Positions 8,525 through 25,476 of a DNA stretch of 64,000 nt are shown in pieces (the stretch's first letter is position 1; every line of letters starts with the position of its first letter). The stretch spans positions 30,058-94,057 of the forward strand of contig JAJNQA010000027.1 of NCBI GenBank assembly GCA_021155085.1, written 5' to 3'. Below the pieces are notes generated by a model that did not search any database, was not told the origin of the DNA, and worked only from the letters and a program-made list of their open reading frames with translations. The position numbers and the translations under genes are program-made. Source of the stretch: Heliomicrobium sp. GTDB lineage: Bacteria; Acidobacteriota; Blastocatellia; RBC074.

Positions 8525-8540
8525 ACGCCACAGTCTTTTT

Positions 8541-8614
8541 CCCATTTCCCATTTTTGATTTGTCATTTCCACGAACGTATCTTCCGCAATGACAAATCAA
8601 AAATGGGAAATGGG
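8541..8614. repeat. inverted-repeat element copy 2 (27-bp perfect arms CCCATTTCCCATTTTTGATTTGTCATT / AATGACAAATCAAAAATGGGAAATGGG) with GGGAAAT tandem units
   Basis: perfect 27-bp palindrome arms separated by 20 nt; shares core with 6217-6269. Confidence 0.85.
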
Positions 8615-8662
8615 AAATGAAATGCGCTCTGCCGTCAATCCATTCCAGAAGGGAAAAAACAT

Positions 8663-8691
8663 CTTCCCACCCTTTTTTCGTGTGCTATACT
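8663..8691 (+). promoter_or_regulatory. candidate promoter with extended -10 (TGcTATACT), weak -35
   Basis: same CTATACTCCGCGC block as copy 1; about 155 bp upstream of ATG 8848. Confidence 0.35.
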
Positions 8692-8847: not shown

Positions 8848-11800
8848 ATGCTTTCCAAAGAGTGGAAACAACGAAAAACAACTTACGATTTCATCATCAT
8901 TGGTTCTGGGTATGGAGGCGCAATCACCGCCGCACGCCTGACCGCCGCCACGCCTTCGCCGTCCGTCTGCCTGCTGGAACGCGGGCGCGAATGGGAGGTT
9001 GGCAAATTCCCCGATGACGTTGGTGAAGTCGCCCGCAGCGTCCGCAATCCCACCTTCAATCCCACGGGACTCTATGATTTTCTGCTCTTTCCTGAAATTT
9101 CAGTCATGAAAGGCTCCGGCCTCGGCGGGACCTCGCTGATCAACGCCAACGTGGCCATCGTGCCGGACGAAGAAGTCTTCAGGCAGCTTGCCTGGCCAAA
9201 CGCGATCAAGCTGCCGGAGTTGCTGCCGTATTACCAGAAGGCGAAAACCATGCTGGGCGCAAACCCCCACCCACGCGGAAATCCGGCACAGGCCGATTCG
9301 CTGTTGAAAGTTCGTGGCCTGGATAAACGCGCGCAGGAACTGAGCCAGCGGGCCTTTCCGCTCGACATCGTGGTCAGTTTCAAGGACGGCAAGAACGCGG
9401 CGGGCGTCGAACAGAAAGCCTGCATTGATTGCGGCGATTGCGTGACCGGCTGCAACGTCGGCGCGAAAAACACGCTTTACATGAATTACCTGCCGGTCGC
9501 CGCGCGGCAGGGCTGCGACATTTTCACGAAGACCGAAATCAAATGGATCGAAAAACTCAGCGGCGGCGGCTGGCGCGTTCACGGCGTGCGCTACAAGGAC
9601 CTGAATTTCACGGATGATTTCACGCTCGACGCGGGCAAGGTGATTCTGGCCGCCGGTTCGCTGGGCACGCCGGAGATTCTGCTGCGCTCGGAGTTTCGCG
9701 GTTTATCGCTTTCGCCCAAAGTGGGCACGCAGTTTTCCGGCAATGGCGATTTCTTCGCGCTGGCGTACAACGCGGATCAACAGTTGAACACCGTGGGCTT
9801 CGGCAAAAATCCCGGCCATAAGTGGGCGCAGCGCGGCAATGCGCCCGGGCCAAGCATTGTCGGGACCGTTCGCTACGGCGGGACAAATTCCAGCCTGCCG
9901 TTGGAAAAGCGTATGACGATTCAGGATTTTTCCTTTCCCAGCGCCTATGTCAGCGCGGCGATGATCGCGCTGGATTCGCTGGTCAATCTCGGCGGCGGAC
10001 AGGACACAGACCTCGGCGATGAAAAGGCCGAACGCGACCGCGTCCGGAAGAACAATCCGTTCGACCCTTATAAACAGGACAACGCCGCGTTCAATCACAC
10101 AATGCTCTATTTGATAATGGGGCACGACGACGGGAAGGGCGTTTTGCGGCTGAAGCATGAACAGGGACGCGTCGAAATTGATTGGGACAACGCCGGACGG
10201 CAGCAGGTCTTCAACCTGATCAACGAAGAGATTCGCCGCCATTCCCGCGCGCTGGGCGCAACCTTCGTCACCAATCCGCTGTGGGCCATTACCCCATCCA
10301 GAAACCTGATCACCGCGCATCCGCTGGGCGGTTGTCCGCTGGGCGATGATTATCTGCACGGCGCGGTGGATGAATTCGGGCGCGTCTTCGCGGGCGATGG
10401 CAATGTTCATGACGGATTGTTTGTGGCAGACGGCTCGTTGATTTCGACGGCGCTTGGGGTCAATCCGTTCCTGACCATTTCAGCCCTGTCGGAACGAATC
10501 GCCGACCGAATGGTCCGCCATCTGGGCGGCGAAGCTTACCCGGCGCGCCCGGTAACGGTCCCGGTTGGCGGGCTCGAGCCGGCGGAAATCACGAAGTACA
10601 AGGAAGACGACCTGGAACGCATCTTCAGCCGCGTTCAAACCGGCAGCATCGAAAAGATGGTCAACGGCGGCAAGGTCGAAATTGACGCGGCGCATGGAAT
10701 GATCCGCAACGACACCGTCTGGAAAGGCTTTTTTCCGCGCGGCCACGTGATGGACCGGCTTTCGACGGCATTTTTTGCCAGCTTCAGGAAACGCTTCAGC
10801 AAAACCGCCGATGGCAAATTCATCGGCGTCACCAGCGATTCCGATGGGCGCATCAACGCTAATAACAAGCTCGAAGAGATCACGCTGACCAAACGCACGG
10901 GCACGCTCGATCCGGGCAAATACATCAAATTAAGTTACACGGATCCGCAGTGGGCGGGCTTTTACGACATTTTCAAAGTCGTCAGCGATGACCTGCTGAT
11001 CGGGCGCGTTTATCTGGGACGCTACCCGGACGGCCATCGCCTGTTTACCTTCCCCATGGTCCGCAGCTACGGCCTGGACAATATGACCGTCCCCGATCAC
11101 AAGGCGATTTGGGATCAGGGCGCTGTGCCAGCGAAAGAGCAGTTGAGCGGATTGTGGGAAATGCACATGGTTTCCAACGCGCACAACACCGGCGTAGTGG
11201 CGTATTTGAAATTCGAGCACAAACCTGACGGGCGGCTGGAATCGCATTACCAATTCCTGGGTTTGATTGAAGGGTTGGCGGACGGAAGCTTCGGCCAGGA
11301 TCATTTCCGGATGGATGACTTCACGCGGTTTCACGACGAAATTCGTTTCGTCAATCCAGACATGCTGGTCGGCAAATACGTGACCGACGAACGCCCCGCC
11401 GTATTCAATTTGTTTGGCCCGGATTCGCTGGGACTTTTTCACCGCGAAAAAGGCGCGGACGGCACGACGCGTTTTGGCTTTTATTACTGGCTGAAACGCA
11501 GCACGCTGACCGAAACACCGGCAGTGGGCTTCCTGCGCCCATTGCTCGATACGCGCCTGCCGGAAGGCGTGGGAATGAGTTTTGACGAGGAGATGAACGG
11601 ATATTTCTTCCTAGGCTTCACGCCCCCCCCTGGACGCGCGGGCGATCAGCAGATCGAAGCCAGAATTCCCGCAAGCGGTAAACCCGCCGATGGCGAAGAG
11701 ATGAGTCTGGAAATGCGCATTACCGCGCGCGACCTCAACGAATTCATTGAAAGCACTGAACACGAAGCCCGTTTGGAAGGCACGATTCGCATTCAGAACT

Positions 11801-12249
11801 TCGAGGGGCAGCCGGGACAGACCATCTGCACCATCAACAGCTCGAAGAGTTTCTTCAACTACCTGCGCATCAATCCGGCGACGCAGGAGGCGGAGATTCT
11901 CTACCGCATCTATTTCTTCGCCGGCGTGGGCCGGGAATACCTCTTCTCCGGGCGCAAGTACATGCAAAAAGACGCGCGCGACGTGCAGGAAATCGTCCGT
12001 GATTTCACCACCTGTTACGGGCGTTTGACCGAATTGAAAACGGGACGCGAAGTCGGCGCGGGCCTGCTCCGATTCCGAACCTTTGAAGATCCGGACGCCG
12101 TGCATAGCTTTGCGGAGTACCTGAAATCCTTCCGCGTGATCGGCACGGACAATCCGTTTGTGCAGTCGCAGGCGCAACTTCGATTTCTGGCAGTGACCAA
12201 TCAGTTCGTCGCAAGGGAGTATGACTTGATTGGAAATTTGCTGAGCTAA
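8848..12249 (+). CDS. GMC-family (cholesterol-oxidase-like) FAD oxidoreductase fused to about 570-aa C-terminal region of unknown function
   Basis: GAGGAGGAG SD; N-term DFIIIGSGYGGA Rossmann, GGTSLINANV, C-term GMC motif HPLGGCPLGDD...GLFVADGSLISTALGVNPFLTISALSERIA at about aa 480-560; remaining about 570 aa no recognisable family. Confidence 0.75.
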   Translation: MLSKEWKQRKTTYDFIIIGSGYGGAITAARLTAATPSPSVCLLERGREWEVGKFPDDVGEVARSVRNPTFNPTGLYDFLLFPEISVMKGSGLGGTSLINANVAIVPDEEVFRQLAWPNAIKLPELLPYYQKAKTMLGANPHPRGNPAQADSLLKVRGLDKRAQELSQRAFPLDIVVSFKDGKNAAGVEQKACIDCGDCVTGCNVGAKNTLYMNYLPVAARQGCDIFTKTEIKWIEKLSGGGWRVHGVRYKDLNFTDDFTLDAGKVILAAGSLGTPEILLRSEFRGLSLSPKVGTQFSGNGDFFALAYNADQQLNTVGFGKNPGHKWAQRGNAPGPSIVGTVRYGGTNSSLPLEKRMTIQDFSFPSAYVSAAMIALDSLVNLGGGQDTDLGDEKAERDRVRKNNPFDPYKQDNAAFNHTMLYLIMGHDDGKGVLRLKHEQGRVEIDWDNAGRQQVFNLINEEIRRHSRALGATFVTNPLWAITPSRNLITAHPLGGCPLGDDYLHGAVDEFGRVFAGDGNVHDGLFVADGSLISTALGVNPFLTISALSERIADRMVRHLGGEAYPARPVTVPVGGLEPAEITKYKEDDLERIFSRVQTGSIEKMVNGGKVEIDAAHGMIRNDTVWKGFFPRGHVMDRLSTAFFASFRKRFSKTADGKFIGVTSDSDGRINANNKLEEITLTKRTGTLDPGKYIKLSYTDPQWAGFYDIFKVVSDDLLIGRVYLGRYPDGHRLFTFPMVRSYGLDNMTVPDHKAIWDQGAVPAKEQLSGLWEMHMVSNAHNTGVVAYLKFEHKPDGRLESHYQFLGLIEGLADGSFGQDHFRMDDFTRFHDEIRFVNPDMLVGKYVTDERPAVFNLFGPDSLGLFHREKGADGTTRFGFYYWLKRSTLTETPAVGFLRPLLDTRLPEGVGMSFDEEMNGYFFLGFTPPPGRAGDQQIEARIPASGKPADGEEMSLEMRITARDLNEFIESTEHEARLEGTIRIQNFEGQPGQTICTINSSKSFFNYLRINPATQEAEILYRIYFFAGVGREYLFSGRKYMQKDARDVQEIVRDFTTCYGRLTELKTGREVGAGLLRFRTFEDPDAVHSFAEYLKSFRVIGTDNPFVQSQAQLRFLAVTNQFVAREYDLIGNLLS

Positions 12250-12293
12250 ATCTGCTCCTTTTCGCTTGAACCCGAAACTCACAGGAGATTGCC

Positions 12294-13763
12294 ATGAACG
12301 AAGATTTGAAAACCCTGTATCGCACGGTTGGAATCACCGCTCCGCTGCCGGACGCCACCCGATCGTTTGCCGCCACTGCGGCGTTGAATGCTGACGACCC
12401 GGCGGATTTGCCGCCGCTGGATGCCAATGGGCTGGATCAGCTCGAAGCGGAGTTGAATCTTCATCCGCGCCTGACGCTGGCGCGCGCGCGCGAAGCCTGG
12501 GATCCCGGGCTGACCCAGAAGCAATTGCGTGAAGCCATTGCCACAACCCGCCGGGCGCTGAACGCGCCGGAGCAAGCCGTCGCCGAAATCCAGGCCGCCG
12601 CCCTTTCCCGTTCGGCAATTGCCGCCGCTGCACTGCCGAACGGCTTCGATTTCCCCGGAATGGATCTCGCGGAAATCGGGATTGACCCGGATGATCGAAA
12701 GTTTGAAAACGATGATGTGGTTGGCATTCTCGGTTGGATGTTTGGCGCGGGGCCATACGTTCTGACAAGACCGAAGAAGGAAACCTTTCGATTCCACAAT
12801 CAAGCCTCATTCTCATCGAACTTCATTTATCCGCTGCCGGAACCCGCGCCCGGCGCGCCGCTGGAAATCGCGCTGTTCAGCGATTTCGGCGTCGGGCGGT
12901 ATTACTCGAAATACATCGCCAAACAGCTCAAAACCCGCCGCTTTCCTTATGCCATTCATCTGGGCGATGTGTATTTCGCGGGGCGGCGCTCGGAATTCGC
13001 CGAATACTTCGAACCGCTGATTGATCCCATCCTGGCCGAGACCGGCGTTTTTGCGCTCAATTCGAACCACGAGATGTATTCCGGCGGCATTCCGTATTTC
13101 GAGTACATCAGCAAACGCGCACAGCTTCAGCCCGCCAAACAGAAACAGGAAGGAAGTTATTTCTGCCTGCGCTCGCAGCGGTTTCAAATCATCGGAATTG
13201 ACACCGCTTTCAATGGTCACGGACGCTACAAGGAAGACATCCTGGTCAACTGGCTGCGCGACCGGTTGCGCGAAGGGCGGCAAGCGGGGCGGGTGAACAT
13301 TCTGCTCAGCGCCGATCATCCCTACAATTACGGCGAAAAGAAACTGACGAAGCTGCTGGACAAAGACCTGAGGCCGCTGGTGCTGGACGAACGGCTGGTG
13401 GATTTGTGGTTCTGGGGCAACACGCATTACTGCGCGCTGTACGACCACAGGCCGGCGGCTGCGGGCGAAATTCCCGTGCTGCCCTTTGTCGGCAGTTGCA
13501 TCGGGCACGGCGGCTATCCTTATGACATCGTGAAGCAGGGCCGGTTCCAGCCCACGCCGATTGTCTTTCTGGAGGGAAACGCGCGCTTCCCGGCGGCAAC
13601 GGGGCTGCGGCAGGACAGAGGCAATAACGGCTACTGCGTGCTGCAACTCAATGCGGATGGGTCAATCGGATTGCAATACGTGGATTGGATGAGCAATTTG
13701 CGCTTTGCTGCAATGCTGACCCGCGATGCTGCCGGACAACCGCTGAAAGTGGTGCCAGCCTGA
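12294..13763 (+). CDS. calcineurin-like metallophosphoesterase with about 190-aa N-terminal extension
   Basis: motifs HLGDVYFAG, ALNSNHEMY (GNHE-like), HPYNY, GNTHY; 44 bp after upstream stop. Confidence 0.7.
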   Translation: MNEDLKTLYRTVGITAPLPDATRSFAATAALNADDPADLPPLDANGLDQLEAELNLHPRLTLARAREAWDPGLTQKQLREAIATTRRALNAPEQAVAEIQAAALSRSAIAAAALPNGFDFPGMDLAEIGIDPDDRKFENDDVVGILGWMFGAGPYVLTRPKKETFRFHNQASFSSNFIYPLPEPAPGAPLEIALFSDFGVGRYYSKYIAKQLKTRRFPYAIHLGDVYFAGRRSEFAEYFEPLIDPILAETGVFALNSNHEMYSGGIPYFEYISKRAQLQPAKQKQEGSYFCLRSQRFQIIGIDTAFNGHGRYKEDILVNWLRDRLREGRQAGRVNILLSADHPYNYGEKKLTKLLDKDLRPLVLDERLVDLWFWGNTHYCALYDHRPAAAGEIPVLPFVGSCIGHGGYPYDIVKQGRFQPTPIVFLEGNARFPAATGLRQDRGNNGYCVLQLNADGSIGLQYVDWMSNLRFAAMLTRDAAGQPLKVVPA

Positions 13764-13770
13764 TCAAAAA

Positions 13771-13797
13771 GTGGAACGGACTTCAGTCCGTTCACAG
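13771..13797 (+). terminator. stem-loop GTGGAACGGAC-ttca-GTCCGTTCAC between operon genes (member of GTGG...CCAC hairpin family)
   Basis: 8-9 bp perfect stem, 4-nt loop; no clear U-tract so may be processing/REP-like rather than terminator. Confidence 0.4.
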
Positions 13798-13850
13798 CTA
13801 CCTGGAACAGACCGAAAATCCGTCTCACAAACTTGTTTAAGGAGCAATCA

Positions 13851-14819
13851 ATGGCCAATCTTGGCAAACTCGAACTCACGATCAAAAACACTGTGGATCA
13901 GCCTGCCGCCGATCCCAAAACGCGAATTGAAGTTCAACGTACGGACAATTCCGTCGTCCGCCAATTTAAGAACCTTAACCTGCCGCTCCCCGGCGTATTG
14001 GAGATTCCGGCGTTCCCGCATGAATCCAATTTGCGCTGCACCGTGCTGTCAAAACGCTATCGCCCTTTCAACACGGGCTTTTTCACGCTTTCATCGGCGG
14101 AACCGAAGCGGCTGGAATTGCACGCCCTGCGCAATCCCAAAGAGTGGAGCGCGCAATTCGTCGCCTGGAAGCAACTGCCGGAAGAGTTCAAACCCATTCA
14201 ACAGGTGCTGGACGCTTCGGAAGTAAAAGTCATCAAGGGCGAAAAACTCGGCAAATTTACCGAAGACAAATACGACACGGCCAAGACCGAAAAGACCGTC
14301 CTGGCGAAAACCGCCCTGCTGAACCTGTTCGCCAAACTCACCGTTTTGCCGGAACCGATTGGCGGACGGAATCCCTGGTTTTCGTTTGTGGATCGCGTGC
14401 TGGCGATTGACCGGGAGCGTTTTTACGCGCAGGTGAACGTGGAAATGGGCGAGGTCGTCCGGCATATCAAAGACAACCTGCCCAAATTCAACGGCTACGA
14501 ATCGGCCACCGCCGGCAATCACTTCGACAAATTGCAGGAAACCCTGCCTGAATTCCGCATCTTCAAAACGAAGATGTTCAGCGTCAAAACCGACGATGCC
14601 AACGGCAATCTGCAACTGACGCTGGCTCCAGCCAAAGACGCTGGCGGAAACGACGTGCTGCTGCTGGATGCCGATATGGACGAAAACGGCAAAATGCTGA
14701 AGCACTTGATTGACGTGTTTTTCATTCACCCGTTCAATGGCGGAACGCATCCATTCGACATTCACGAATACCTGGCGCTGGCCCATCGCAACCATCCGCG
14801 CGGGTACGAACTGGTCTGA
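13851..14819 (+). CDS. hypothetical protein (322 aa), third gene of GMC/phosphoesterase operon
   Basis: AAGGAG SD 7 nt upstream of ATG 13851; no recognisable motif. Confidence 0.5.
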   Translation: MANLGKLELTIKNTVDQPAADPKTRIEVQRTDNSVVRQFKNLNLPLPGVLEIPAFPHESNLRCTVLSKRYRPFNTGFFTLSSAEPKRLELHALRNPKEWSAQFVAWKQLPEEFKPIQQVLDASEVKVIKGEKLGKFTEDKYDTAKTEKTVLAKTALLNLFAKLTVLPEPIGGRNPWFSFVDRVLAIDRERFYAQVNVEMGEVVRHIKDNLPKFNGYESATAGNHFDKLQETLPEFRIFKTKMFSVKTDDANGNLQLTLAPAKDAGGNDVLLLDADMDENGKMLKHLIDVFFIHPFNGGTHPFDIHEYLALAHRNHPRGYELV

Positions 14820-14866
14820 GGTTTTCGGGTCGCGGCGATGACTGAAAATCGCCGCGGCCCGGAATC

Positions 14867-16288
14867 TTACGGTCTGGATTTCGGCAGCCGCTCAACCAGC
14901 GGCTGGTAGCGCGGATCGGAACGCAACGTTGCCAGATCCTCATCGCCATCATAATCCGTGCGCGCGCCGAAGTTTTCATTAACCGCCTGCGCCAGCATTT
15001 CAAACGCCTTGTCTTTCTTTCCCAGCCGCGCATATCCACACGCCAGATTGTAGGACGCCAGCCCGCGCGTGTTGGCGCCGGGCGGAATACCAGCGGCAAA
15101 GGCATTCTCATAATTTTTGACCGCCTCTTCGTTTTTCCCCTGGTGGAGTTGTGCGTAGGCGAGCTGGCCGTAAACCTGACTGTTGCGCATTCCGCCGTCA
15201 ACGGCGCGGATCAAAAGCTGTTCCGCTTCAGCCCATTGCTGCCTGCCCAGCCGAATCTGTCCCAGCCCGGCCAGAACGCCCGGATGATCGGAACCCAGGG
15301 CCAGCGCCTTTTCATAGGCGGCGGTGGCTTCGTCCGTTCGCCGCAGTTGCATCAGCGCCCGGCCATAATGCAAATGCGCGTCGGCGTCTTTGGGATGGTC
15401 GGCCACCCAGCGAGAGAGCAAATCGGCTGTCTGCTGCGGATTATTGCCGTATGTCGCGGCGACGATAGCCCGCGCGGGCGAAGGCTGCCACGGCGGCGCG
15501 GGAACCGGTTCCAGATTGGATTTCCAGAACGCAAGACTTTGTTGAATGATCCGGCGCGCGTCGTCATTGTCTGAAAACGCGTCGAAGGCGTGCGGCAGGC
15601 GGCTGGCAAACAATAACGTCCACGGTGCGCCGGCTTCGACGACACGCTGCCACAAACCGGTGAGCGGCGCGCCCAATCCCGGCGCATCACCCGCTGCCGT
15701 AATGAACAGCACCGGCAGGTCGGTTCGCAGCTTGCCCGGCGGAGGCGCGCCGTAATACAGCGCCGCCGCGCGAATGCCGGGAGCGGCGTGTTCGCCGGAA
15801 AGATATTCCGCCGCTCCGCGCACATTGGCCGAAGCGGCGTAAACGCCCAGCCGCGCCGCGTCCACGTGATGTTCCGCGCCCCGCTCGGTCAAAAAGCTGA
15901 ACAGGCCGCGAATGCTTTCCTGAACTTTCGTGGCGTCGGCGTCCATCGAAATCCCGATCATTCCGTGCGCCGCCACCAGTCGCGGCCAGGTTTTATAAAT
16001 CTCCCAGCTTTTGATTTTGCTGTCTGGGCGGTCGCCAATGGCATTGAGGAACACAACCGCAGGGCGTTTCTCTCCGGCTTTCAAACCAGGCGGCAGATAA
16101 ATGTCCGCCGTCAATGCGCCGGAGTAGGGAACGTCCGCGCGGACTTTAACATCGCGCGTGGCGGGAACGTCGTAAACCACGCCCCAGTATGTCGCATCGA
16201 GTGGCGAACGCTCTTGCGCCAGACTGGAAATTGCAAAAGCCGCCGTCAGTAGCAGCAGTCGTGTTGCTCGAAACAGGTGTTGAATCAT
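14867..16288 (-). CDS. secreted alpha/beta-hydrolase (dienelactone-hydrolase/S9-like) with C-terminal TPR repeats
   Basis: start at MIQHL with GGAGG SD; signal peptide; a/b-hydrolase core then TPR-like AYEKALALG.../AYAQLHQGKNEEAVKNYENA. Confidence 0.7.
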   Translation of the reverse strand: MIQHLFRATRLLLLTAAFAISSLAQERSPLDATYWGVVYDVPATRDVKVRADVPYSGALTADIYLPPGLKAGEKRPAVVFLNAIGDRPDSKIKSWEIYKTWPRLVAAHGMIGISMDADATKVQESIRGLFSFLTERGAEHHVDAARLGVYAASANVRGAAEYLSGEHAAPGIRAAALYYGAPPPGKLRTDLPVLFITAAGDAPGLGAPLTGLWQRVVEAGAPWTLLFASRLPHAFDAFSDNDDARRIIQQSLAFWKSNLEPVPAPPWQPSPARAIVAATYGNNPQQTADLLSRWVADHPKDADAHLHYGRALMQLRRTDEATAAYEKALALGSDHPGVLAGLGQIRLGRQQWAEAEQLLIRAVDGGMRNSQVYGQLAYAQLHQGKNEEAVKNYENAFAAGIPPGANTRGLASYNLACGYARLGKKDKAFEMLAQAVNENFGARTDYDGDEDLATLRSDPRYQPLVERLPKSRP

Positions 16289-16420
16289 GGTTGCGCCTCC
16301 GAGTTTGGAAAAGCCGTTGAACATGAAAAAAGCCGGGCACGTGGCCCGGCTGGAAATATAGCGGCGCAAAGGTTGGCCGAATACTGCGGCTCACCGCGCT
16401 CTAACATCTTTTACAAGATT

Positions 16421-18919
16421 TTACCGCCCGCCAATCGGATCGCCCGGTGGTGTCGGCAGGGGACGGCTCGGCTGACGAACAGCGTCCGGGCGGCTCAAAA
16501 AGCGTTCGATGTCTTCCTGCACGGCGCGCCGATGCGCGTCGGTTGCGGCAGTGGTTTTCAGCAATGCATTCAAACCGCGCAGTGCGCCGGAAGCCTCCGC
16601 TCTCACCAGCGGCGAAGCGCCTTCATCCCCCGCCAGAGCGATCAGCTTCTGCGCTGTCACGCTTTGCACCGAACGCTGAATCGCGCGGTGATAAGCGTTC
16701 GTCGTGGCGGGAGCTTTCCAGGTGGCGGCGATGACGGCGTCAATCACTTCCTTGAAATCCGGATTGGCGGCGTTTTCTCCGTGGAACTGAATCAGCCGGG
16801 CGGCGCGATTCGGATCGAGCAGTGCGGTCAAGGTCAGATCGGCGGCAATCGTCGCGGCGGCCAGCGGATCGAACGCCGGGTCGGTGCGGCGGCTGAAATA
16901 TTCCGCCGTGCCGCCTTCGTAGCCGGTGGCAACGGGCGGAATCAGATCGAGAATATTTTGCGGCAGCGCCAGTTCATCCACCTTGATTGTTTCGAGTAAG
17001 GCTTTTAATGCCTCGCGCTGGCGAGCGGCAGGAGCGACTTCGCGGAATTTGGCCGGACTGGGACCATTGGCGGTTTTGACGGCGTAGGTGAAATACAGGC
17101 CGCCGAGCGATTTTGATGCGGCAATCAGTTGGTAGCGGTGATGCAGATACAACGGCAGCAGCTTGGCTTCGAGCGCGGACATCGGCTGGCCCACCGCGAT
17201 GCTTTTCAGGCCGAAATCTTTCAGCCCGATGCGGCGGACTTCCATTTCGTGGCGCAAGGTGGCGATGGCGTCCGTGCCGTTGTCCCAGACGCTGGCCAGC
17301 GGATGCGCCGTGCCTACGCCGCGCGCGTCGCCGTCGTCAATGAACAGCATTCCGTCGGTCAGCCCTTTTTGAATGATCTTTTCCAGTTCCGCTTTTTCAT
17401 TCACGCCGGCAGGGAATTCGGCGTAGGCGAATTTGACCGAAAACTTGTCGAAATCGCCGATGCCGACGGCGTAGGCATTCGACAAATCCAGTTTGCCGTT
17501 TTTGATCTCGACCCACGGCGCGGGGTAATCCATCACCGAACCTCGGTTGTAACTGGACGCCGCGAAGTTATGCGAGAAGCCCAGCGTGTGGCCGACTTCG
17601 TGGGCCGACAACTGGCGAATGCGCGCAAGCGCCATCGCCGCTGAATCGGTCGCCGCGTCGGCCGTCGAAGCGGTCAAATAGTCCATGTCCGGCGAATCGC
17701 CCGCTTCGCACAAATGATTGAATCCGGCATCTTCGGTTGACGCGGTCAGCACGGGGATCATCCCAGTCCCCAGCATGACATCCTGCCGAATGCGCAAACT
17801 TCCCAACGAGACATTGCCCTTGATGATTTCGCCCGTGCGCGGGTCGCTGACCGAGGCGCCGTAGGACCAGCCGCGCGTCGAACGATGCACCCAGTTGATC
17901 ATGTTGTAGCGGACATCCATCGGGTCTGCGTCCGCCGGAAGCACTTCGACGCGGTAGGCGTTTTTGAATCCGGCGGCTTCATACGCCTGTGCCCACCACT
18001 GCGCGCCTTCGACCAGGGCGGAGCGGATCGGTTCCGGCACGCCGTTATCCACGTAATAGACAATCGGTTTGACGACTTCGCTGACCGCCGCGCCAGGATC
18101 TTTTTTCTGCAGGCGGTGACGGCGAATCCAGCGCTTTTCGACCGGTTCGGTAAATGGCGAAGCGTAATCGTGAAACATCATTGGCATCGCGCTGACGCGC
18201 GGGTCGTATTCTCGCGGCTTATAGTTCAAATCCGGCAGTTCGACGAAGGAATGATGCTGGCGCACGGTCACGGATTGCGCTGACGGCGTAACGCTGCGAA
18301 CGAGGCCGCCCGGTTCATCGCTGGCCAGCGTGATGACGGTTTCGACTTCGGTATTTTTCGGAAAGCCTTTGGTGCGTGGCAGGTAAAACGAACTGCGCGA
18401 TTCGTCAAAACGGAAATTGCCCTGCCGCGCGCCGCGCATTCTTTCCGCGACACCGTGCGCGTCGCGCATAAACAGCGCGGTTGCATCCACCAGCACTTTG
18501 CCAGCTTCCGCCGCTTCGACCTTGAAGCCCCAGATGACGGATTTGGCAAAGGAATCGGCGACAGCGCGGCGTTCGGCTTCGTCGCTGGACAGTGCGCGAT
18601 AGCGGTAATTCGGCTGAATCATCAAGACCTTCGACCCGACGCGCTCGAAGTGCACGACAAACGTCCCGCCCAATTGTCCGCGATCCAGGCCGATGGGATT
18701 GGAGCCGACGCCCGCCGGCAGCGAAAGCTGGTAGAGCAGTTCGGTGTTGAACCGGGAAATTTCCATCCACATCTTGCCTTGCGCCGCGTCCCAGTACAGC
18801 GGCACGTAGCCGTCAATCTTTTGCAGGTTGGCGGTTTTGGCGGAAATCGTCGGTGGCGTTTGCGCGCCGACTGGCAGCGCGGCAAATAACAGCAACAGGG
18901 TGAAGAGCAGTTTTTTCAT
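16421..18919 (-). CDS. secreted zinc-dependent metalloprotease (DUF5117/DUF4953-type, HExxH)
   Basis: signal peptide [20 protein letters not shown]; [13 protein letters not shown] zinc-binding motif. Confidence 0.8.
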
Positions 18920-19018
18920 TTATACGTCCTCCGAAGTTTGTGAGTGAGTTGCGTGCGGTGGAATTAGTGCGGTACGCGAGCGTAAGCGAGCGCCATCAGT
19001 GATGAGAGTGGCGCTCGC

Positions 19019-20107
19019 TCACGCTCGCGTACTGTGCGCATCAAGCATCTTGCGAATCAACGGCGCGAGCAAATGCGGCTCGGCCAGAAAGCCATCGTGT
19101 CCGTGGTCGGTAAGGATTTCGGCGTACTCGGCATCCACACCCGCTTCTCGCATCCGGTTACTCAACGCTTTGACTTCCGAAGCCGGAAACAGCCAATCCG
19201 AAGAAATGCCGACCAGCAGCACGCGGGCCTGGATTCGTTCCAGCGCGGCGCGTTCCGACTCATAGCCAACCGTCGGATGAAAGTTATCCATTGCCTTGGT
19301 GATGAGCAGATAGGAATCGGCGTCAAAACGCCGCATGAAAATCGCGCCCTGATAATCCAGATACCCGCCGATGTCGTACCGTCCGGTCAGCGAAACCAGC
19401 GGGGCCTCGCCGTTGCGGTTTGGCCTGCGGGCGTACCGTTCGTCCAACAGCGTTTCGGATTTGTACGACAGCATCGCGATTTCACGCGCCAGCGCCAGCC
19501 CGCCATTTGGGTTATTAAAGATCGCCTGCCGTTGCAGGTGATTGAGCGCCAGTCCCATCGCGGTCAATGGCGCTGCCCCAATTGCCACGCATCGCGGAAC
19601 GCGATGCGGAAGGTCAATGGCCCATTGCATCGCCTGCATCGCGCCAATCGAACCGCCGACCACCGCGCGCAAGGTTTCAATTCCCAGATGATCCAGCAAA
19701 CGCGCCTGTGATCGAACCCAGTCGGAAACACCGACCAGCGGAAAGTCCCTGCCAAATGGTTTGCCGGTCGCGGGATTCCAGCTTTGCGGTCCGGTCGAAC
19801 CGTAGCAGGAACCCAGGACGTTGACGCAGATGACGCAATCGCGGTCGAGATCGAAAACGCCGTTCGCATTTTCCGGTGTCAGAAACAGTTGGGGCCACCA
19901 ATCGCCCGCGCGTGCCGAGCCGGACAAGGCGTGGCAGACCAGAATGGCGTTGTCGCGCTGTTCATTCAGCTTGCCGTAAATTGCGTAATGCAGCGTAACA
20001 GGTTGCAGCGAACCGCCGGAGAAAAGCTGGAAGGGCTGGTCAGTGGCGAAAGCGAAATCGCCTTCGAAGGTGGGTTCAATTGAATTGGGCGTCGCGTTTG
20101 ATGCCAT
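19019..20107 (-). CDS. metX: homoserine O-acetyltransferase
   Basis: a/b-hydrolase MetX family (GGSIGAMQAMQWAIDLP, catalytic Ser), start placed at ATG 20107 (MASNATPNS); ORF extends to 20161 with TTG. Confidence 0.8.
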   Translation of the reverse strand: MASNATPNSIEPTFEGDFAFATDQPFQLFSGGSLQPVTLHYAIYGKLNEQRDNAILVCHALSGSARAGDWWPQLFLTPENANGVFDLDRDCVICVNVLGSCYGSTGPQSWNPATGKPFGRDFPLVGVSDWVRSQARLLDHLGIETLRAVVGGSIGAMQAMQWAIDLPHRVPRCVAIGAAPLTAMGLALNHLQRQAIFNNPNGGLALAREIAMLSYKSETLLDERYARRPNRNGEAPLVSLTGRYDIGGYLDYQGAIFMRRFDADSYLLITKAMDNFHPTVGYESERAALERIQARVLLVGISSDWLFPASEVKALSNRMREAGVDAEYAEILTDHGHDGFLAEPHLLAPLIRKMLDAHSTRA

Positions 20108-20140
20108 TACTGCCTGTGGAAGGGAATTTTCAGGAAGCCG

Positions 20141-20250
20141 AAAGAGGAGAGCACGGAACAAACGGAAATAACGGAATAAACGGAAACTTCAGGGTTGTTT
20201 CTCTTCTTCCGTTCGCTCCGTTATTTCCGTGTGTTCCGTATTCTCCAAAT
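20141..20250. repeat. about 100-bp imperfect palindrome with AACGGAA(T)A tandem units in metY-metX spacer
   Basis: ggaacaaacggaaataacggaataaacggaaac ... gtttccgt / cgttatttccgtgtgttccg mirror arms. Confidence 0.6.
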
Positions 20251-20260
20251 GCATTGCTGG

Positions 20261-21733
<1,473 letters not shown>

Positions 21734-22005
21734 TCAAATTGTCACTAAAATTGTTGAATCATCTGAATGACGCGCGCAGTCTAGGCTATCGTCAACCGCA
21801 CTGTCAAAGTTTTGGATTGAATGCCCTGGATTGCGGACGTTCCGTCCGCGCAGTCGCGTCATTTTGCGCGGACGGAGCGTCTGCGCTCCAGCCTCAATCT
21901 TCTACTTTGGAAAAGAATGGTCTACCATACGGCCACTTCGCAAAAACACTTCAACGTTTGTCGGAATTTCGCATCCGGACTTTGCTTTCAGGGAGGAAAT
22001 TAAGA

Positions 22006-23295
22006 ATGCGTCGTCTCTTGTCGCTTGCGTTATCGCTAATGGTTTTGGGTTGTCTTGCCTCGCTTGCCGCGGTGTCGGCGGAAAACTGGCCGCAATGGCG
22101 CGGGCCGATGCTCAACGGCATCAGCAATGAAAAGAACCTGCCGGTCAAATGGTCCGCGGAAGAAAACGTCACCTGGAAACTGCCTATGCCCGACCGCAGC
22201 GGCTCAACGCCGATTATCTGGGACAACACAATTTTCCTGAATATGGCGGACGGCACAAAAGCGACCGGCACGCTGTCTTTCTGGGCGGTGGATCGCACCA
22301 AGGGCACCGTGTTGTGGAAAAAGCCGCTCGGCGCAGGCGACCACATGATGCGCAAACAGAATATGTCTTCGCCTTCGCCTGTCACGGACGGCAAAATGGT
22401 CTGGGTGCTGACAGGGATGGGTGTGCTGCGCGCCTTCGATTTCAACGGCAATGAACTGTGGATGCGCGACATTCAAAAAGAGTATGGCAAGTTCGGTTTG
22501 AACTGGGGCTACGGCTCTTCGCCGCTGCTGCACGAAAACGCGCTTTATGTGCCGGTGCTGCACGGCATGCGCACGGATGAGCCCTCTTACCTTTTGAAAC
22601 TGGACAAGGCCACCGGCAAAACCATCTGGAAACATGACCGGCCGACTCCGGCCATCATGGAATCACCCGATGCCTACATCACACCGGCCTTGCTGAAAAA
22701 CGGGAACAAACTGGAAATCGTGCTCAGCGGCGGCGACTGCATCACTGGTCACGATCTGGCGACCGGCAAGGAATTGTGGCGCGCTTACGGTCTGAATCCG
22801 CAAAACATACAGTTCAACCGCATCGTCAATTCGCCGATCGTTTTCGACGGGTTGATTTACGCCGGCAGTCGGGGAAATCCGTATCTGGCTCTGCGCGCCG
22901 GAGGAAGCGGCGACATCACCAACACCCATGTTGCCTGGTCGTTCAACAACGGTCCTGATGTGCCAACGCCGGTTACGGATGGCAAGTATCTCTATCTGGT
23001 GCGCGACAACGGCACAATATTCTGCCTGGATGCCAAAACCGGAAAAGAAATTTACGGTAACCAGCGTTTGAAACCTGGCACCTACAGCTCTTCTCCCGTG
23101 CTGGCCGACGGCAAGATATACGCGGCCAACGAAGAGGGCTTTACAGTGGTCGTCAAAGCCGGGCCGCAATTTGAAGTCCTGGCTGAAAACGCGCTTGGCG
23201 ATTACTGCCTGAGTTCGCCTGCGATTTCCGACGGCCAGATTTTCATGCGCACTTCGGGCGCGTTGTACTGCATCGGCAAACGCGTAAAGAAGTAA
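22006..23295 (+). CDS. secreted PQQ-like beta-propeller repeat protein
   Basis: GGGAGG SD; signal peptide [25 protein letters not shown]; repeated W-x-x-G propeller blades. Confidence 0.7.
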
Positions 23296-23303
23296 TGAAA
23301 GCG

Positions 23304-23351
23304 TGGGACAGATTTCAGTCTGTCCACAGTGCCGACAGGCTAAAGCCTGTC
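23304..23351. repeat. two adjacent REP-like hairpins (GTGGGACAGAT-ttcag-TCTGTCCACAG and GACAGGCT-aa-AGCCTGTCCCAC)
   Basis: same palindrome family as 34038, 40235, 41830. Confidence 0.7.
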
Positions 23352-23373
23352 CCACGATTTCCACGGAGCAATT

Positions 23374-25476
23374 ATGCTGAAAGCACGCATCGCAGTTGTT
23401 TCAATTCTCCTACTTATCTTTTCGCTGTCCGTGTTGGCGCAAACCAGGCGTCCGATCACTCACGAAGACGTCTGGCTGATGAAACGCGTCGGCGCGCCCG
23501 TGCCTTCGCCGGACGGGAAATGGGTAGTCTTTTCGGTGGTCGAACCGTCTTACGTCGAAGCGGACCAGGTTTCGGATTTGTGGATCGTTCCCGCCGACGG
23601 CAGCGCCAAACCGCGCAAGCTGACCAACACCAAAGGCGGTGAGAGCGGCGCAACGTGGTCGCCGGATGGCAAAAAGATCGCCTTTTCCACTCGCCGCGAA
23701 GGCGACGAAGCCGCGCAAATTTATCTGCTCAGCGTTGACGGCGGCGAAGCGATGCGTGTGACCCAGCTTTCCACTGGCGCGCGCAGTCCGCAGTTTTCGC
23801 CGGACGGCAAAGCGATTCTCTTTCAAAGCAGCGTCTTTCCCGGCACGCTCAACGACGAAGACAACAAGAAAGCCGCTGCCGACCGCAAGGCGCGCAAGTG
23901 GAACGCCCGCGTTTACGAAAGCTTCCCCATTCGCAACTGGGATCGCTGGCTGGATGACAAGCAAACGCACGTCTTTGTGCAATCACTTGATCCCGGTGCG
24001 AAAGCGAAAGACTTGCTGGCAGGAACGAAACTGGTCGCAGGCGCAGGATTCGCGGGCGTGACCGGCGCTGGCAGTGATGATCTGAATGCCGCGTGGTCGC
24101 CCGATGGCCAGTCAGTTGTGTTCGCGGCAAGCGACAACCGCAATGTGGCGGCTTATGCCGAAACCAGCACGCATCTTTACGCGGTTTCGATTAACGGCGG
24201 CGAACCAAAGCCGTTGACGAACGGACAGGACAGTTACTCCGGACCGAAGTTCAGCCATGATGGAAAAACGCTTTTCTGCGCGCTCAGTCCGGATTCCGAG
24301 AAAGCTTATAACCTGAACCGAATCGCCAGCTTTTCCTGGCCGTCCGTCAGCGACCGGAAAATTGTCACCGCCGGATTTGACCGTGCGCCGTCAAGCTTTG
24401 CGCTGACGCCGGATGGCAAAACGATTTACCTGCTGGCCGAAGACGCCGGACACGAAAAGCTGTTCACGGTTCCGGCAAGCGGTGGGCAAGTGACGCTGGC
24501 GATGGACCTGACGCGCGGCGTTTACACGGGCTTGGCGATTCCGGCCAAAGCGTCAGCAGTGTTTGCCAACTGGGAAAGCGCGACCAATCCGGCGGAAGTC
24601 GTGCGCATTGACCCCGCCTCGAAAACTCACAAGGCGCTGAGCGACTTCAACGCCGAGCGTGTTGCGCAGCTTGATCTGCCGCCGCTGCGCCATCACTGGT
24701 TCACCAGCAAGCGTGGAAAAAAGATTCACAGCTTGATTGTCTTGCCGCCGGGCTTCGACGAAAACAAAAAGTATCCATTGTTCGTCTTCATTCACGGCGG
24801 GCCGCACACGATGACGCGCGACCAGTTCTTTCTACGCTGGAATTATCATCTGTTGGCGCAGCCGGGCTACGTGATTTTGATGACGGATTACACAGGCTCG
24901 ACCGGCTACGGCGAAAAGTTCGCGCAGGAAATTCAGCGCGATCCGCTGAAAGGTCCCGGCGAAGAATTGAACGAAGCCGCTGACGCCGTGATCAAGGAAT
25001 TCAAATGGATTGACGGCGCGCGGCAGGCGGCGGGCGGCGCAAGTTACGGCGGGCATCTGGCCAACTGGCTGCAGGCAACCACCACGCGCTACAAATGTTT
25101 GATCGCGCACGCGGGCTTGATGAATTTGGAATCGCAGTGGGGAACCAGCGACGTGATTTACAGCCGCGAAGTCAGCAACGGCGGCCCGGTCTGGGAACAG
25201 GGCGAAGTCTGGCGGACGCAGAATCCGATTCGATACGCCGCCAACTTCAAAACGCCGATGCTGATCACCGTCGGCGAAAACGATTTCCGCGTGCCGCTCA
25301 ACAATTCACTGGAAAGTTGGAGCATCCATCAGCGGCTGCGCATTCCCAGCAAACTGCTGGTGTTTCCCGAAGAAAATCACTGGATTCTGCGTGGTGAAAA
25401 CAGCCGGTTTTTCTATTCGGAAGTTCACGCCTGGCTGAACCGCTGGCTGAATCCGGTTTCAAGCGCAGGCAATTGA
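23374..25476 (+). CDS. S9 family peptidase (prolyl-oligopeptidase/dipeptidyl-peptidase type) with N-terminal beta-propeller
   Basis: signal peptide; PD40-like repeats (WSPDG x several); C-term a/b-hydrolase GGASYGGHLANWL. Confidence 0.8.
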   Translation: MLKARIAVVSILLLIFSLSVLAQTRRPITHEDVWLMKRVGAPVPSPDGKWVVFSVVEPSYVEADQVSDLWIVPADGSAKPRKLTNTKGGESGATWSPDGKKIAFSTRREGDEAAQIYLLSVDGGEAMRVTQLSTGARSPQFSPDGKAILFQSSVFPGTLNDEDNKKAAADRKARKWNARVYESFPIRNWDRWLDDKQTHVFVQSLDPGAKAKDLLAGTKLVAGAGFAGVTGAGSDDLNAAWSPDGQSVVFAASDNRNVAAYAETSTHLYAVSINGGEPKPLTNGQDSYSGPKFSHDGKTLFCALSPDSEKAYNLNRIASFSWPSVSDRKIVTAGFDRAPSSFALTPDGKTIYLLAEDAGHEKLFTVPASGGQVTLAMDLTRGVYTGLAIPAKASAVFANWESATNPAEVVRIDPASKTHKALSDFNAERVAQLDLPPLRHHWFTSKRGKKIHSLIVLPPGFDENKKYPLFVFIHGGPHTMTRDQFFLRWNYHLLAQPGYVILMTDYTGSTGYGEKFAQEIQRDPLKGPGEELNEAADAVIKEFKWIDGARQAAGGASYGGHLANWLQATTTRYKCLIAHAGLMNLESQWGTSDVIYSREVSNGGPVWEQGEVWRTQNPIRYAANFKTPMLITVGENDFRVPLNNSLESWSIHQRLRIPSKLLVFPEENHWILRGENSRFFYSEVHAWLNRWLNPVSSAGN

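What the first reader, a model, noticed from the sequence alone, without database searches (positions are those of the whole stretch)
8848..14819. Three-gene operon of unknown function: GMC-oxidoreductase fusion, metallophosphoesterase with N-terminal extension, hypothetical
The genes are co-directional and tightly spaced (44 and 87 bp gaps, the latter holding a hairpin), each with a strong SD, behind the duplicated promoter module. The first protein (1133 aa) is about twice the length of known cholesterol-oxidase-type GMC enzymes; its last ~570 aa match nothing recognisable. The second is a calcineurin-like phosphoesterase carrying a ~190-aa N-terminal region of no known family. The third (322 aa) is an orphan. 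This combination does not correspond to a described pathway or system.
Basis: partly seen in the sequence, partly recalled or inferred. Interest (0 to 1): 0.65.

Follow-up and report, generated by a model that had tools for sequence, protein, structure and literature searches.

The report
Undescribed flavoprotein–phosphoesterase three-gene cluster
Three adjacent genes of a soil Acidobacteriota bacterium (a double-length flavin enzyme with an iron-sulfur motif and three predicted ligand-binding barrels, an unusual phosphoesterase, and a member of an unnamed protein family) are a shortened copy of a recurring, undescribed gene cluster that in relatives also holds a plant-type fatty-acid alpha-dioxygenase; its function is still unknown.

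Summary
The three ORFs, their spacing (44 and 87 nt), Shine-Dalgarno sites and the B-C hairpin are as described. Several interpretive points need revising.

- **Gene A's unmatched C-terminal 570 aa** is predicted to fold into three calycin-type beta-barrels. In Ca. Scalindua this module is a separate gene next to the GMC gene.
- **The GMC half of A** carries a conserved CxxCxxCxxxC motif. Three of its cysteines fall where the 3Fe-4S ligands sit in B. cepacia FAD-glucose dehydrogenase, so A is probably an Fe-S dehydrogenase rather than a simple oxidase.
- **Gene B, including its N-terminal extension,** belongs to a conserved family found in Acidobacteriota, myxobacteria and Chloroflexi.
- **Gene C is not an orphan.** About 500 clusters at 50% identity match it, and it has an invariant Asp/His motif.
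- **The trio is one variant of a modular cluster.** L158 has A–alpha-dioxygenase–B–C. Other relatives swap in purple-acid-phosphatase-like or PhoD-type phosphoesterases, or a protease-nuclease fusion. The closest relatives by C identity lack A and B altogether.
- **Associations are non-random.** GMC genes (14 loci within 5 kb, none at 5-10 kb) and phosphoesterases cluster tightly around C.

No known pathway or defence system matches. Best guess (about 0.4): cytoplasmic processing of a phosphorylated, lipid-like substrate.

The parts
8538..8617 (.). Perfect 30-nt AT-rich inverted repeat (20-nt spacer), 14 nt after the stop of the upstream Ser/Thr kinase gene. It is a probable terminator or boundary element upstream of the cluster.
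   Evidence: unique in the window, with 0 matches expected by chance
8664..8691 (+). Promoter-like site TTCCCA-16-TATACT with an extended TG; candidate promoter of the unit.
   Evidence: consensus match only, and the number of such sites in the region is not above chance
8848..12249 (+). Gene A, 1133 aa: a cholesterol-oxidase-like GMC flavoprotein fused to a triple beta-barrel module. Soluble, with no signal peptide or TM segment.
8848..10527 (+). A, GMC domain (aa 1-560). It has the FAD motif GSGYGG (8902-8919), the catalytic-pair motifs HPLGG (10318-10332) and GVNPF (10456-10470), and best PDB match to class I cholesterol oxidase.
   Evidence: (1coy, E 2.7e-29)
9421..9453 (+). A, ferredoxin-like CIDCGDCVTGC (aa 192-202). 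Cys192, Cys198 and Cys202 have the same spacing, and the aligned position, of Cys212, Cys218 and Cys222, which bind the 3Fe-4S cluster in B. cepacia FAD-GDH.
   Evidence: conserved in 69 of 76 full-length homologues; the other 7 ORFs start within about 100 nt of a contig end, except L124, which starts further in; 6a2u_B residues 211-298 aligned from query residue 20; PMC6719666
10528..12246 (+). A, C-terminal module (aa 561-1133): three predicted 8-stranded calycin-type barrels (about 10675-11073, 11149-11502 and 11572-12075) plus terminal helices.
12294..13763 (+). Gene B, 489 aa: divergent calcineurin-like metallophosphoesterase. The family-specific N-terminal region is aa 1-190 (12294-12863). 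The catalytic domain is aa 191-489, with motifs SDFG, GDVY, SNHE, GNTH and IGHGG.
13774..13793 (+). 8-9 bp hairpin in the B-C spacer with no T-run on the + strand. It is not a convincing terminator, so read-through into C is likely.
13851..14819 (+). Gene C, 322 aa: member of an unnamed family. It has an N-terminal transthyretin-like beta-sandwich (aa 1-105) and an alpha/beta domain with the invariant motifs LDxDxDEnG (14664-14690) and GGTHP[FY]DIHEY (14739-14771).
14827..14860 (.). 13-bp GC-rich hairpin between convergent gene C and the TPR gene (14867-16369, minus strand); marks the end of the unit.
   Evidence: read directly from the sequence

Best explanation
A-B-C is one transcription unit encoding three soluble cytoplasmic proteins. 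It is a reduced variant of a modular Acidobacteriota gene cluster whose fuller form is A-alphaDOX-B-C.

Proposed mechanism, with inferred steps marked:
- B is a binuclear metallophosphoesterase that cleaves a phosphate or phosphodiester head from an amphipathic, lipid-like substrate (inferred).
- The three calycin barrels of A hold either the hydrophobic part of that substrate or a lipophilic electron acceptor (inferred from fold).
- The cholesterol-oxidase-like FAD domain of A oxidises an exposed hydroxyl. The catalytic His and Asn motifs are present, which is shown.
- Electrons pass from FAD to an Fe-S cluster bound by the CxxCxxCxxxC loop rather than directly to O2. The motif and its positional equivalence to a known 3Fe-4S site are shown; presence of a cluster is inferred.
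- C is a metal-binding accessory enzyme or partner that works with phosphoesterases and GMC enzymes on the same substrate class (inferred from neighbourhood, gene fusions and the invariant Asp/His motif).

In relatives a fatty-acid alpha-dioxygenase sits between A and the phosphoesterase, which points to fatty-acyl or lipid chemistry.
For: Operon-like layout.

Gene A:
- It is closest to class I cholesterol oxidases, with HPLGG and GVNPF conserved.
- The Cys motif is conserved in 69 of 76 full-length family members, and in the split Scalindua GMC.
- That motif aligns with the 3Fe-4S ligands of 6a2u (PMC6719666).
- The C-terminal half is predicted as three calycin barrels.
- The GMC and barrel protein are separate adjacent genes in Ca. 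Scalindua.

Association of A with a phosphoesterase:
- 12 of the 13 loci with the closest A relatives hold an MPE of one of three subfamilies: B-type, PAP-like or PhoD-type.
- 20 of 83 loci anchored on more distant A homologues also hold one.

Association of C with its partners:
- GMC genes lie within 5 kb of C in 14 of 53 loci, and in none at 5-10 kb.
- PAP-like MPEs show 7 against 0 in the same comparison.
- A GDPD phosphodiesterase sits next to C in L009, L010 and L156.
- Remote C-like proteins lie near distant A homologues.

Lipid context:
- An alpha-dioxygenase homologue (E 2e-117 to rice and Arabidopsis alpha-DOX) lies between A and the MPE in 8 of the 13 closest loci.
- The full A-alphaDOX-B-C form is seen in L158.

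No TM segment or signal peptide was found in A, B or C.
Against: - No substrate is identified and nothing was tested biochemically.
- The window has no alpha-dioxygenase anywhere, so the lipid link is by analogy to relatives.
- Calycin barrels bind many ligand types, including cyclic dinucleotides in Cap15, so the fold does not prove lipid binding.
- Some related clusters carry a trypsin-like protease fused to Endonuclease_NS, or a membrane pYEATS protein. These do not fit a lipid pathway.
- C is also fused to GH5 and SGNH hydrolases, and lies next to GT2 and YdjC genes. That suggests carbohydrate contexts.
- The closest relatives keep C without A or B.
- There is no electron-acceptor gene in the operon.
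- B lacks the motif-I histidine and has no solved relative by sequence.
Confidence: 0.4

Rival explanations
1. Conflict, defence or programmed-death effector cluster. The variable genes (H2O2- or electron-producing flavoprotein, lipid dioxygenase, protease-nuclease, protease-phosphoesterase, membrane pYEATS protein) are cytoplasmic effectors, and the barrels of A sense a small-molecule signal. The window would hold a three-gene version.
For: - Gene content is modular and changes between close relatives, and A and B are absent from the nearest relatives.
- A cytoplasmic NAL1-like trypsin protease module is fused either to Endonuclease_NS or to the B-type MPE, with 45% identity between the two protease modules.
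- A pYEATS membrane protein sits in L005.
- Neighbours include Mrr_cat and DUF4928 in L005, DUF4276 with AAA_15 in L070, and type I R-M and toxin-antitoxin genes in Scalindua.
Against: - No PADLOC model matches any of 12 proteins tested.
- No NTPase, cyclase or other sensor gene is consistently linked.
- The most frequent partner of distant A homologues is a VAO-type flavoprotein, which looks metabolic.
- The window itself has no nuclease or protease.
- The barrel similarity is generic to all calycins.
Confidence: 0.2
2. Catabolism of a soluble phosphorylated alcohol, polyol or sugar, such as a phospholipid or teichoic-acid head group. A phosphoesterase frees the alcohol, the flavoprotein oxidises it, and C is a glycan- or head-group-directed accessory hydrolase. 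The barrels would have a non-lipid role.
For: - Four different phosphoesterase families (B-type, PAP-like, PhoD, GDPD) sit next to C.
- Plain GMC enzymes lie directly adjacent to C.
- C is fused to GH5 and SGNH domains.
- GT2, YdjC and polyphosphate kinase genes lie upstream of C in L006, L019, L025 and L030.
- A VAO/ALO-type (alditol- or lactone-oxidase-like) flavoprotein is adjacent to A in 31 of 83 loci.
Against: - The GMC half of A is nearest to cholesterol oxidases, not to choline or sugar oxidoreductases.
- The fused barrels and the alpha-dioxygenase neighbour point to hydrophobic substrates.
- No transporter or kinase for such a substrate is in the unit.
Confidence: 0.15
3. No three-way functional unit. 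C is a resident gene of this chromosomal neighbourhood, and an A-B pair (itself a real pair) was inserted upstream of it. The tight spacing would be incidental.
For: - C is syntenic with the downstream block (DUF5117 zincin, alpha/beta hydrolase, Cys/Met PLP enzyme, PQQ_2, S9 peptidase) in L010 and L156, which lack A and B.
- A-alphaDOX-B occurs without C in L070, L072, L076 and L097.
Against: - C follows an MPE, or an A-type cluster, on the same strand in many independent loci: L005, L012, L013, L016, L017, L073, L074 and L158.
- The near-versus-far control gives 14 against 0 and 7 against 0.
- Remote C-like genes lie near distant A homologues.
Confidence: 0.15

Closest known systems
Class I cholesterol oxidase (GMC family; PDB 1coy, 1b4v)
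   Same: FAD-binding fold, best PDB sequence match (E 2.7e-29), and conserved HPLGG and GVNPF catalytic motifs.
   Different: - It scores 184 bits against the 850-bit NCBIfam cutoff.
- It has a CxxCxxCxxxC insertion where cholesterol oxidase has no cysteines.
- It carries a 570-aa triple-barrel extension.
- It has no signal peptide.
- Its substrate is unknown.
Catalytic subunit of direct-electron-transfer FAD dehydrogenase complexes (B. cepacia FAD-GDH alpha, PDB 6a2u; PMC6719666)
   Same: GMC scaffold, with three cysteines at the same spacing and aligned position as the 3Fe-4S ligands Cys212, Cys218 and Cys222.
   Different: - There is no Tat 'hitchhiker' small subunit and no multihaem cytochrome c gene in the operon.
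- The protein is cytoplasmic.
- A fourth cysteine gives a ferredoxin-type motif.
- The fused barrels may take the place of the electron-transfer partner, which is speculative.
Calycin superfamily (lipocalins, FABPs, avidins, nitrobindin-like; DUF3598 2o62, Tcur_1030 4mve)
   Different: No Pfam family matches at threshold, three barrels occur in tandem, and they are fused or adjacent to a flavoprotein. No ligand is known.
Purple acid phosphatase and other calcineurin-like metallophosphoesterases
   Same: B passes the Pfam Metallophos threshold. Its motif pattern D-x-G / GD..Y / NHE / ..H / GH resembles the PAP pattern. True PAP-like and PhoD enzymes occupy the same cluster position in relatives.
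   Different: - B is only marginally similar to those enzymes (BLASTP E 5e-4).
- The tyrosine spacing differs.
- It has no PAP N-terminal domain.
- It has a conserved 190-aa family-specific N-terminus.
- No solved relative is found even with a family profile.
Plant and cyanobacterial fatty-acid alpha-dioxygenase pathway (PDB 4kvj, 4hhr; PMC8720084)
   Same: Related clusters encode a full-length alpha-DOX homologue next to A (E 2e-117).
   Different: The window has no alpha-DOX. No alpha-DOX-linked GMC, MPE or C-type partners are described in the paper read.

Membership tests
GMC oxidoreductase superfamily (A, aa 1-560) | N-terminal FAD-binding beta-alpha-beta fold with GxGxxG | tested here: met
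   GSGYGG at aa 19-24; Pfam GMC_oxred_N E 6e-16, 59 bits against a 23-bit cutoff
GMC oxidoreductase superfamily (A, aa 1-560) | C-terminal substrate domain with catalytic His and Asn (or His) | tested here: met
   GMC_oxred_C at 41.6 bits against a 24.6-bit cutoff. HPLGG (His491) and GVNPF (Asn539) align with the corresponding motifs of 1coy
Cholesterol oxidase ChoA/B equivalog (NF058674) | Score above the curated whole-protein cutoff (850 bits) | tested here: not met
   183.8 bits
Cholesterol oxidase ChoA/B equivalog (NF058674) | 3-beta-hydroxysteroid oxidation and isomerisation activity | not testable with these tools
   needs an enzyme assay
Fe-S-containing FAD dehydrogenase catalytic subunits (BcGDH-alpha type) | Cys-rich loop whose three cysteines bind a 3Fe-4S cluster near the FAD | tested here: inconclusive
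   Cys192, Cys198 and Cys202 match the spacing (6 and 4 residues) and aligned position of Cys212, Cys218 and Cys222, and the motif is conserved in the family. Cluster binding itself was not shown.
Fe-S-containing FAD dehydrogenase catalytic subunits (BcGDH-alpha type) | Partner small 'hitchhiker' subunit with a Tat signal, and a multihaem cytochrome c subunit | tested here: not met
   Neither is encoded in or beside the operon
Calycin / lipocalin-like barrels (A, aa 561-1133) | 8-stranded antiparallel up-and-down beta-barrel enclosing a ligand pocket | tested here: met
Calycin / lipocalin-like barrels (A, aa 561-1133) | Bound hydrophobic ligand | not testable with these tools
   needs binding or structural experiments
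Calcineurin-like metallophosphoesterase (B) | Pfam PF00149 above the gathering score | tested here: met
   26.0 bits against 21.5
Calcineurin-like metallophosphoesterase (B) | Canonical metal-ligand motifs DxH / GD / GNH[ED] / H / GHxH | tested here: inconclusive
   D197-F-G has no His. G224-D225, N258-H259-E, H378 and H405 are invariant, and the classical motif-IV His is not conserved
Purple acid phosphatase (B) | DxG / GDxxY / GNH[DE] / VxxH / GHxH motifs plus the PAP N-terminal domain | tested here: not met
   The Tyr lies at +2 rather than +3, there is no Pur_ac_phosph_N hit, and similarity to true PAP-like neighbours (cl6) is only E 5e-4
Known anti-phage defence systems (PADLOC-DB 2.0) | Any component protein matching a system model | tested here: not met
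   No hits for A, B, C or for nine partner proteins from related clusters
Any named protein family (C) | Match to Pfam, NCBIfam or PDB sequences | tested here: not met

The most novel reading that the evidence does not exclude
A, (alpha-dioxygenase), a phosphoesterase and C constitute a previously unrecognised bacterial system for oxidising lipids inside the cell. At its centre is an Fe-S flavoprotein with built-in lipid- or cofactor-binding barrels. The system would be used either as an alpha-oxidation or oxylipin pathway, or as a membrane-directed conflict or cell-death effector set. The latter reading draws on the protease-nuclease and protease-phosphoesterase fusions in sister clusters. 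It may also be the bacterial source of the plant alpha-DOX and NAL1-type protease families. C would be the founding member of a new metal-dependent enzyme family.
Probability: 0.22. Interest if true: 0.8.

Novelty: new variant of a known kind. Interest (0 to 1): 0.52.

Why it matters
- **A is a common but unstudied architecture.** It combines FAD, a probable Fe-S cluster and three ligand-binding barrels in one chain. It could show how a GMC dehydrogenase hands electrons on without a cytochrome subunit, or how it captures a lipid substrate.
- **The link to bacterial alpha-dioxygenases gives them a genomic context.** Their physiological role is unknown, and this neighbourhood supplies candidate partner enzymes to test.
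- **C is an unnamed family of about 500 clusters at 50% identity.** It has an invariant Asp/His motif and a consistent association with phosphoesterases and GMC enzymes, which makes it a tractable target for function discovery.
- **There is a limit to the claim.** None of this is established function. The window's own operon is a reduced and possibly degenerate version of the cluster.

Tried and rejected
- **Sequence searches against solved structures** found nothing for A aa 561-1133, B or C. Family profiles of C and B also found nothing.
- **PADLOC** gave no hits for A, B, C or nine partner proteins.
- **NCBIfam** gave only sub-threshold GMC hits.
- **Literature searches** for pYEATS, for conflict-system terms, and for alpha-dioxygenase with GMC gene clusters returned nothing relevant.
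- **The AlphaFold-database fold library** was unavailable, so the C-terminal domain of C could only be compared with PDB. Only its N-terminal sandwich matched.
- **B orthologous to the PAP-like MPEs next to C elsewhere:** rejected. BLASTP E-values are 0.21 and 5e-4, and the similarity is confined to the metal motifs.
- **A shared N-terminal targeting domain among B, the nuclease, the pYEATS protein and the peroxidase:** rejected. All-against-all BLASTP found none. The real shared module is a trypsin-like protease, which is present in longer B homologues but absent from the window's B.
- **Secreted or periplasmic location:** rejected. No signal peptides or TM segments were found.
- **A simple H2O2-producing oxidase:** made less likely by the conserved Fe-S-type motif.
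- **An alpha-dioxygenase elsewhere in the 64-kb window:** none found.

Full report
**Observation.** The window holds three co-directional ORFs:
- A: 8848-12249, 1133 aa.
- B: 12294-13763, 489 aa.
- C: 13851-14819, 322 aa.

The gaps are 44 and 87 nt. Each ATG is preceded by an AGGAG-type site. The B-C spacer holds an 8-9 bp hairpin without a T-run on the coding strand. A 13-bp hairpin shared with the convergent TPR gene closes the unit. Upstream lie a perfect 30-nt inverted repeat (8538-8617), a near-duplicated 20-mer and one promoter-like site. The number of promoter-like sites is not above chance. By hydropathy and inspection of the N-termini, none of the three proteins has a TM segment or signal peptide.

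**Gene A, N-terminal half.**
- Pfam finds GMC_oxred_N and GMC_oxred_C in aa 1-547.
- The best solved relatives are class I cholesterol oxidases (1coy, E 2.7e-29), with the HPLGG and GVNPF catalytic motifs conserved.
- The protein scores 184 bits against the 850-bit cutoff of the NCBIfam cholesterol-oxidase equivalog. It is cholesterol-oxidase-like, not a cholesterol oxidase by that test.
- At aa 192-202 sits CIDCGDCVTGC. As a fragment it matches ferredoxin 4Fe-4S motifs best.
- This motif is conserved in 69 of 76 full-length homologues. The other seven ORFs mostly begin at a contig end and lack this region. It is also present in the stand-alone Scalindua GMC.
- The A fragment aligns to B. cepacia FAD-glucose dehydrogenase (6a2u_B) from query residue 20 to chain residue 211. 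This puts Cys192, Cys198 and Cys202 on Cys212, Cys218 and Cys222 with identical spacing (the whole N-half matches 6a2u_B at E 1.9e-6).
- Those three cysteines bind the surface 3Fe-4S cluster that carries electrons from FAD to a cytochrome subunit (PMC6719666).

I infer that A is an Fe-S flavoprotein dehydrogenase. The cluster itself is not shown.

**Gene A, C-terminal half.**
- No Pfam, NCBIfam or PDB sequence match exists. Two or three homologues give faint DUF4334 or GXWXG hits.
- The half has at least 133 homologues. Most are fused to GMC, but 529-541-aa stand-alone forms exist.
- In Ca. Scalindua a 557-aa GMC and a 529-aa barrel protein are adjacent genes, which supports a functional pairing of the two halves.
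- An AlphaFold model built from 32 sequences (pLDDT 85) shows three beta-barrels.
- Foldseek matches it to DUF3598 (2o62, E 1e-5), Tcur_1030, bilin-binding protein and nitrophorins.

These are calycin-type small-molecule-binding barrels. What they bind cannot be told from the fold.

**Gene B.**
- Metallophos is just above threshold.
- The family has 547 hits at E<=1e-3. It is conserved over its full length, including the N-terminal 190 aa, in Acidobacteriota, Sorangium, Minicystis and Anaerolineae.
- Invariant residues are D197 (in a DFG motif, not DxH), G224-D225-x-Y227, N258-H259, H378 and H405. This is a purple-acid-phosphatase-like pattern with altered spacing.
- A family profile finds no solved relative.
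- Longer homologues of 800-830 aa carry an N-terminal NAL1_N plus trypsin-like protease module. That module is 45% identical to the N-half of a protease-Endonuclease_NS fusion found in sister clusters.
- The window's B is the protease-less form. Its 'extension' corresponds to the linker that follows the protease in the longer forms.

**Gene C.**
- It is not an orphan. The indexed search gives 353 homologues, and the exhaustive search gives 497 clusters at 50% identity.
- Nearly all are 315-335 aa. The members with a taxonomic label are almost all Acidobacteriota, mainly Blastocatellia and Pyrinomonadaceae, with a few Vicinamibacteria, Bryobacteraceae and Gemmatimonadota.
- The alignment shows invariant LLDxDxDEnG, H285, H293 and GGTHP[FY]DIHEY, plus conserved arginines.
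- No Pfam family covers it.
- Fusions exist with SGNH/GDSL hydrolases (three proteins) and with GH5 (two proteins).

**Neighbourhoods anchored on C** (60 genome loci; analysis):
- A GMC gene lies within 5 kb on the same strand in 14 of 53 non-redundant loci, and in none at 5-10 kb.
- A PAP-like MPE (470-489 aa) lies next to C in 7 loci, and in none at 5-10 kb.
- Other recurrent neighbours are Ser/Thr kinases, subtilases and a GT2-YdjC-PPK block.
- In L009, L010 and L156, the closest relatives by C (84-87% identity), C keeps the window's downstream synteny (DUF5117 zincin, hydrolase, PLP enzyme, PQQ_2, S9 peptidase). Instead of A-B, a divergently transcribed GDPD phosphodiesterase lies upstream.
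- C therefore sits beside four different phosphoesterase families in different genomes.

**Neighbourhoods anchored on A and B**. The arrangements found are:
- Window and L153: PK-A-B-C-TPR.
- L158: A-alphaDOX-B-C.
- L072: A-alphaDOX-B.
- L070, L076, L097: A-(protease-nuclease)-alphaDOX-B.
- L005: A-(membrane pYEATS)-alphaDOX-PhoD-C.
- L017, L012: A-alphaDOX-(PAP-like MPE)-C-C2.
- L073: A-TIG-(PAP-like MPE)-C.
- L074: A-(protease-nuclease)-C.
- L075, L077: A followed by a PAP-like MPE.
- L004: A alone.

The 'An_peroxidase' gene in these clusters is a fatty-acid alpha-dioxygenase homologue (E 2e-117 to 4kvj and 4hhr across the full length). Bacterial alpha-DOX enzymes are functional in cyanobacteria and were noted phylogenetically in Acidobacteria, without genomic context (PMC8720084). 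The window has none.

Among the 13 loci with the closest A relatives, 12 have an MPE, 8 have alpha-DOX and 7 have C. Among 83 loci anchored on more distant A homologues, the counts are:

| Neighbour | Loci |
|---|---|
| VAO-type FAD_binding_4+ALO flavoprotein | 32 |
| MPE (B-like or PAP-like) | 20 |
| C or remote C-like protein | 11 |
| Both MPE and C-like | 4 |
| Subtilase | 9 |
| RoxA-like cytochrome c | 4 |
| Conserved unknown protein, about 730 aa | 21 |
| Conserved unknown protein, about 1250 aa | 12 |

**Interpretation.** The evidence supports a real but loose functional module made of an A-type Fe-S flavoprotein, a phosphoesterase and a C-type protein. The window carries a reduced form of it. 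The best-supported mechanistic reading is cytoplasmic processing of a phosphorylated, hydrophobic substrate, in these steps:
1. The phosphoesterase cleaves the phosphoester.
2. The barrels capture the substrate or an electron acceptor.
3. The FAD domain oxidises a hydroxyl.
4. Electrons leave through the Fe-S cluster.

The alpha-dioxygenase neighbour and the cholesterol-oxidase affinity point to lipid chemistry. I hold this reading at about 0.4.

A conflict or cell-death effector reading (about 0.2) is kept alive by three things: the protease-nuclease and protease-MPE fusions, the patchy distribution, and defence-like neighbours in some loci. No PADLOC model matches, and no sensor gene is linked. 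A soluble head-group or polyol catabolic role (about 0.15) and simple juxtaposition of an A-B pair with a resident C (about 0.15) remain possible.

**Novelty.** Each enzyme class is known, but several things are not described in any resource searched here:
- the architecture of A (GMC plus Fe-S motif plus three calycin barrels);
- the B subfamily;
- the C family;
- their recurrent clustering with alpha-dioxygenase.

I rate it a new variant of known kinds, of moderate interest, with a more novel reading that is not excluded.

Noticed in passing
window 8538-8567 / 8588-8617: Perfect 30-nt AT-rich inverted repeat with a 20-nt spacer, directly after the Ser/Thr kinase gene. It is unique in the window and unusual in a 58% GC genome. 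It could be a terminator, an operator or a small mobile-element scar.
   Followed up: partly
No function was tested.
   Followed up: no
L070:8231-9904, L005:6398-8086, L017:6712-8400, L072:1739-3430, L158:489-2177: These Acidobacteriota genes match plant fatty-acid alpha-dioxygenases over the full length (E 2e-117). They always lie between the A-type flavoprotein and a metallophosphoesterase. This gives bacterial alpha-DOX a genomic context that the paper read here does not describe.
   Followed up: partly
L070:6275-8164; proteins P0337, P0322, P0347: A NAL1-like trypsin protease module is fused either to an Endonuclease_NS domain or to the B-type phosphoesterase, with 45% identity between the two protease modules. 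Both alpha-DOX and NAL1 are otherwise known as plant families.
   Followed up: partly
L001:6270-9590 (Ca. Scalindua, GCA_004282745.1): The GMC enzyme (557 aa, with the Cys motif) and the triple-barrel protein (529 aa) are separate adjacent genes. This is the unfused form of gene A, in a Planctomycetota genome next to type I R-M and YafQ/Phd genes.
   Followed up: partly
L017:11116-11994; L012:9005-9889: A second, divergent paralogue of C (about 30% identity, keeps the DADIDD...THPFDIHE motif) lies in tandem with C in two loci.
   Followed up: no
proteins P0433, P0445, P0476, P0447, P0505: C-family domains are fused to SGNH/GDSL hydrolase domains (C-terminal to C) or to GH5 glycoside hydrolase domains (N-terminal to C).
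   Followed up: partly
L024:7824-10963, L035:7846-10960, L023:495-3634: A different GMC subfamily carries its own CxxCxxCxxxC motif (CRECGSCGVGC). It is followed by a conserved 176-aa protein without Pfam hits and then C, a layout reminiscent of catalytic plus small subunit of FAD-dehydrogenase complexes.
   Followed up: no
L096:1457-3655; L101:14387-18127: Two conserved proteins of about 730 aa and 1250 aa have no Pfam or PADLOC match. They recur next to distant A homologues in 21 and 12 of 83 loci.
   Followed up: no
window 14867-25476 compared with L010 and L156: The downstream block (DUF5117/DUF4953 zincin, alpha/beta hydrolase, Cys/Met PLP enzyme, PQQ_2 propeller, S9 peptidase) is syntenic with relatives. 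The TPR gene at 14867-16369 and the PK-A-B segment are window-specific insertions relative to them.
   Followed up: partly
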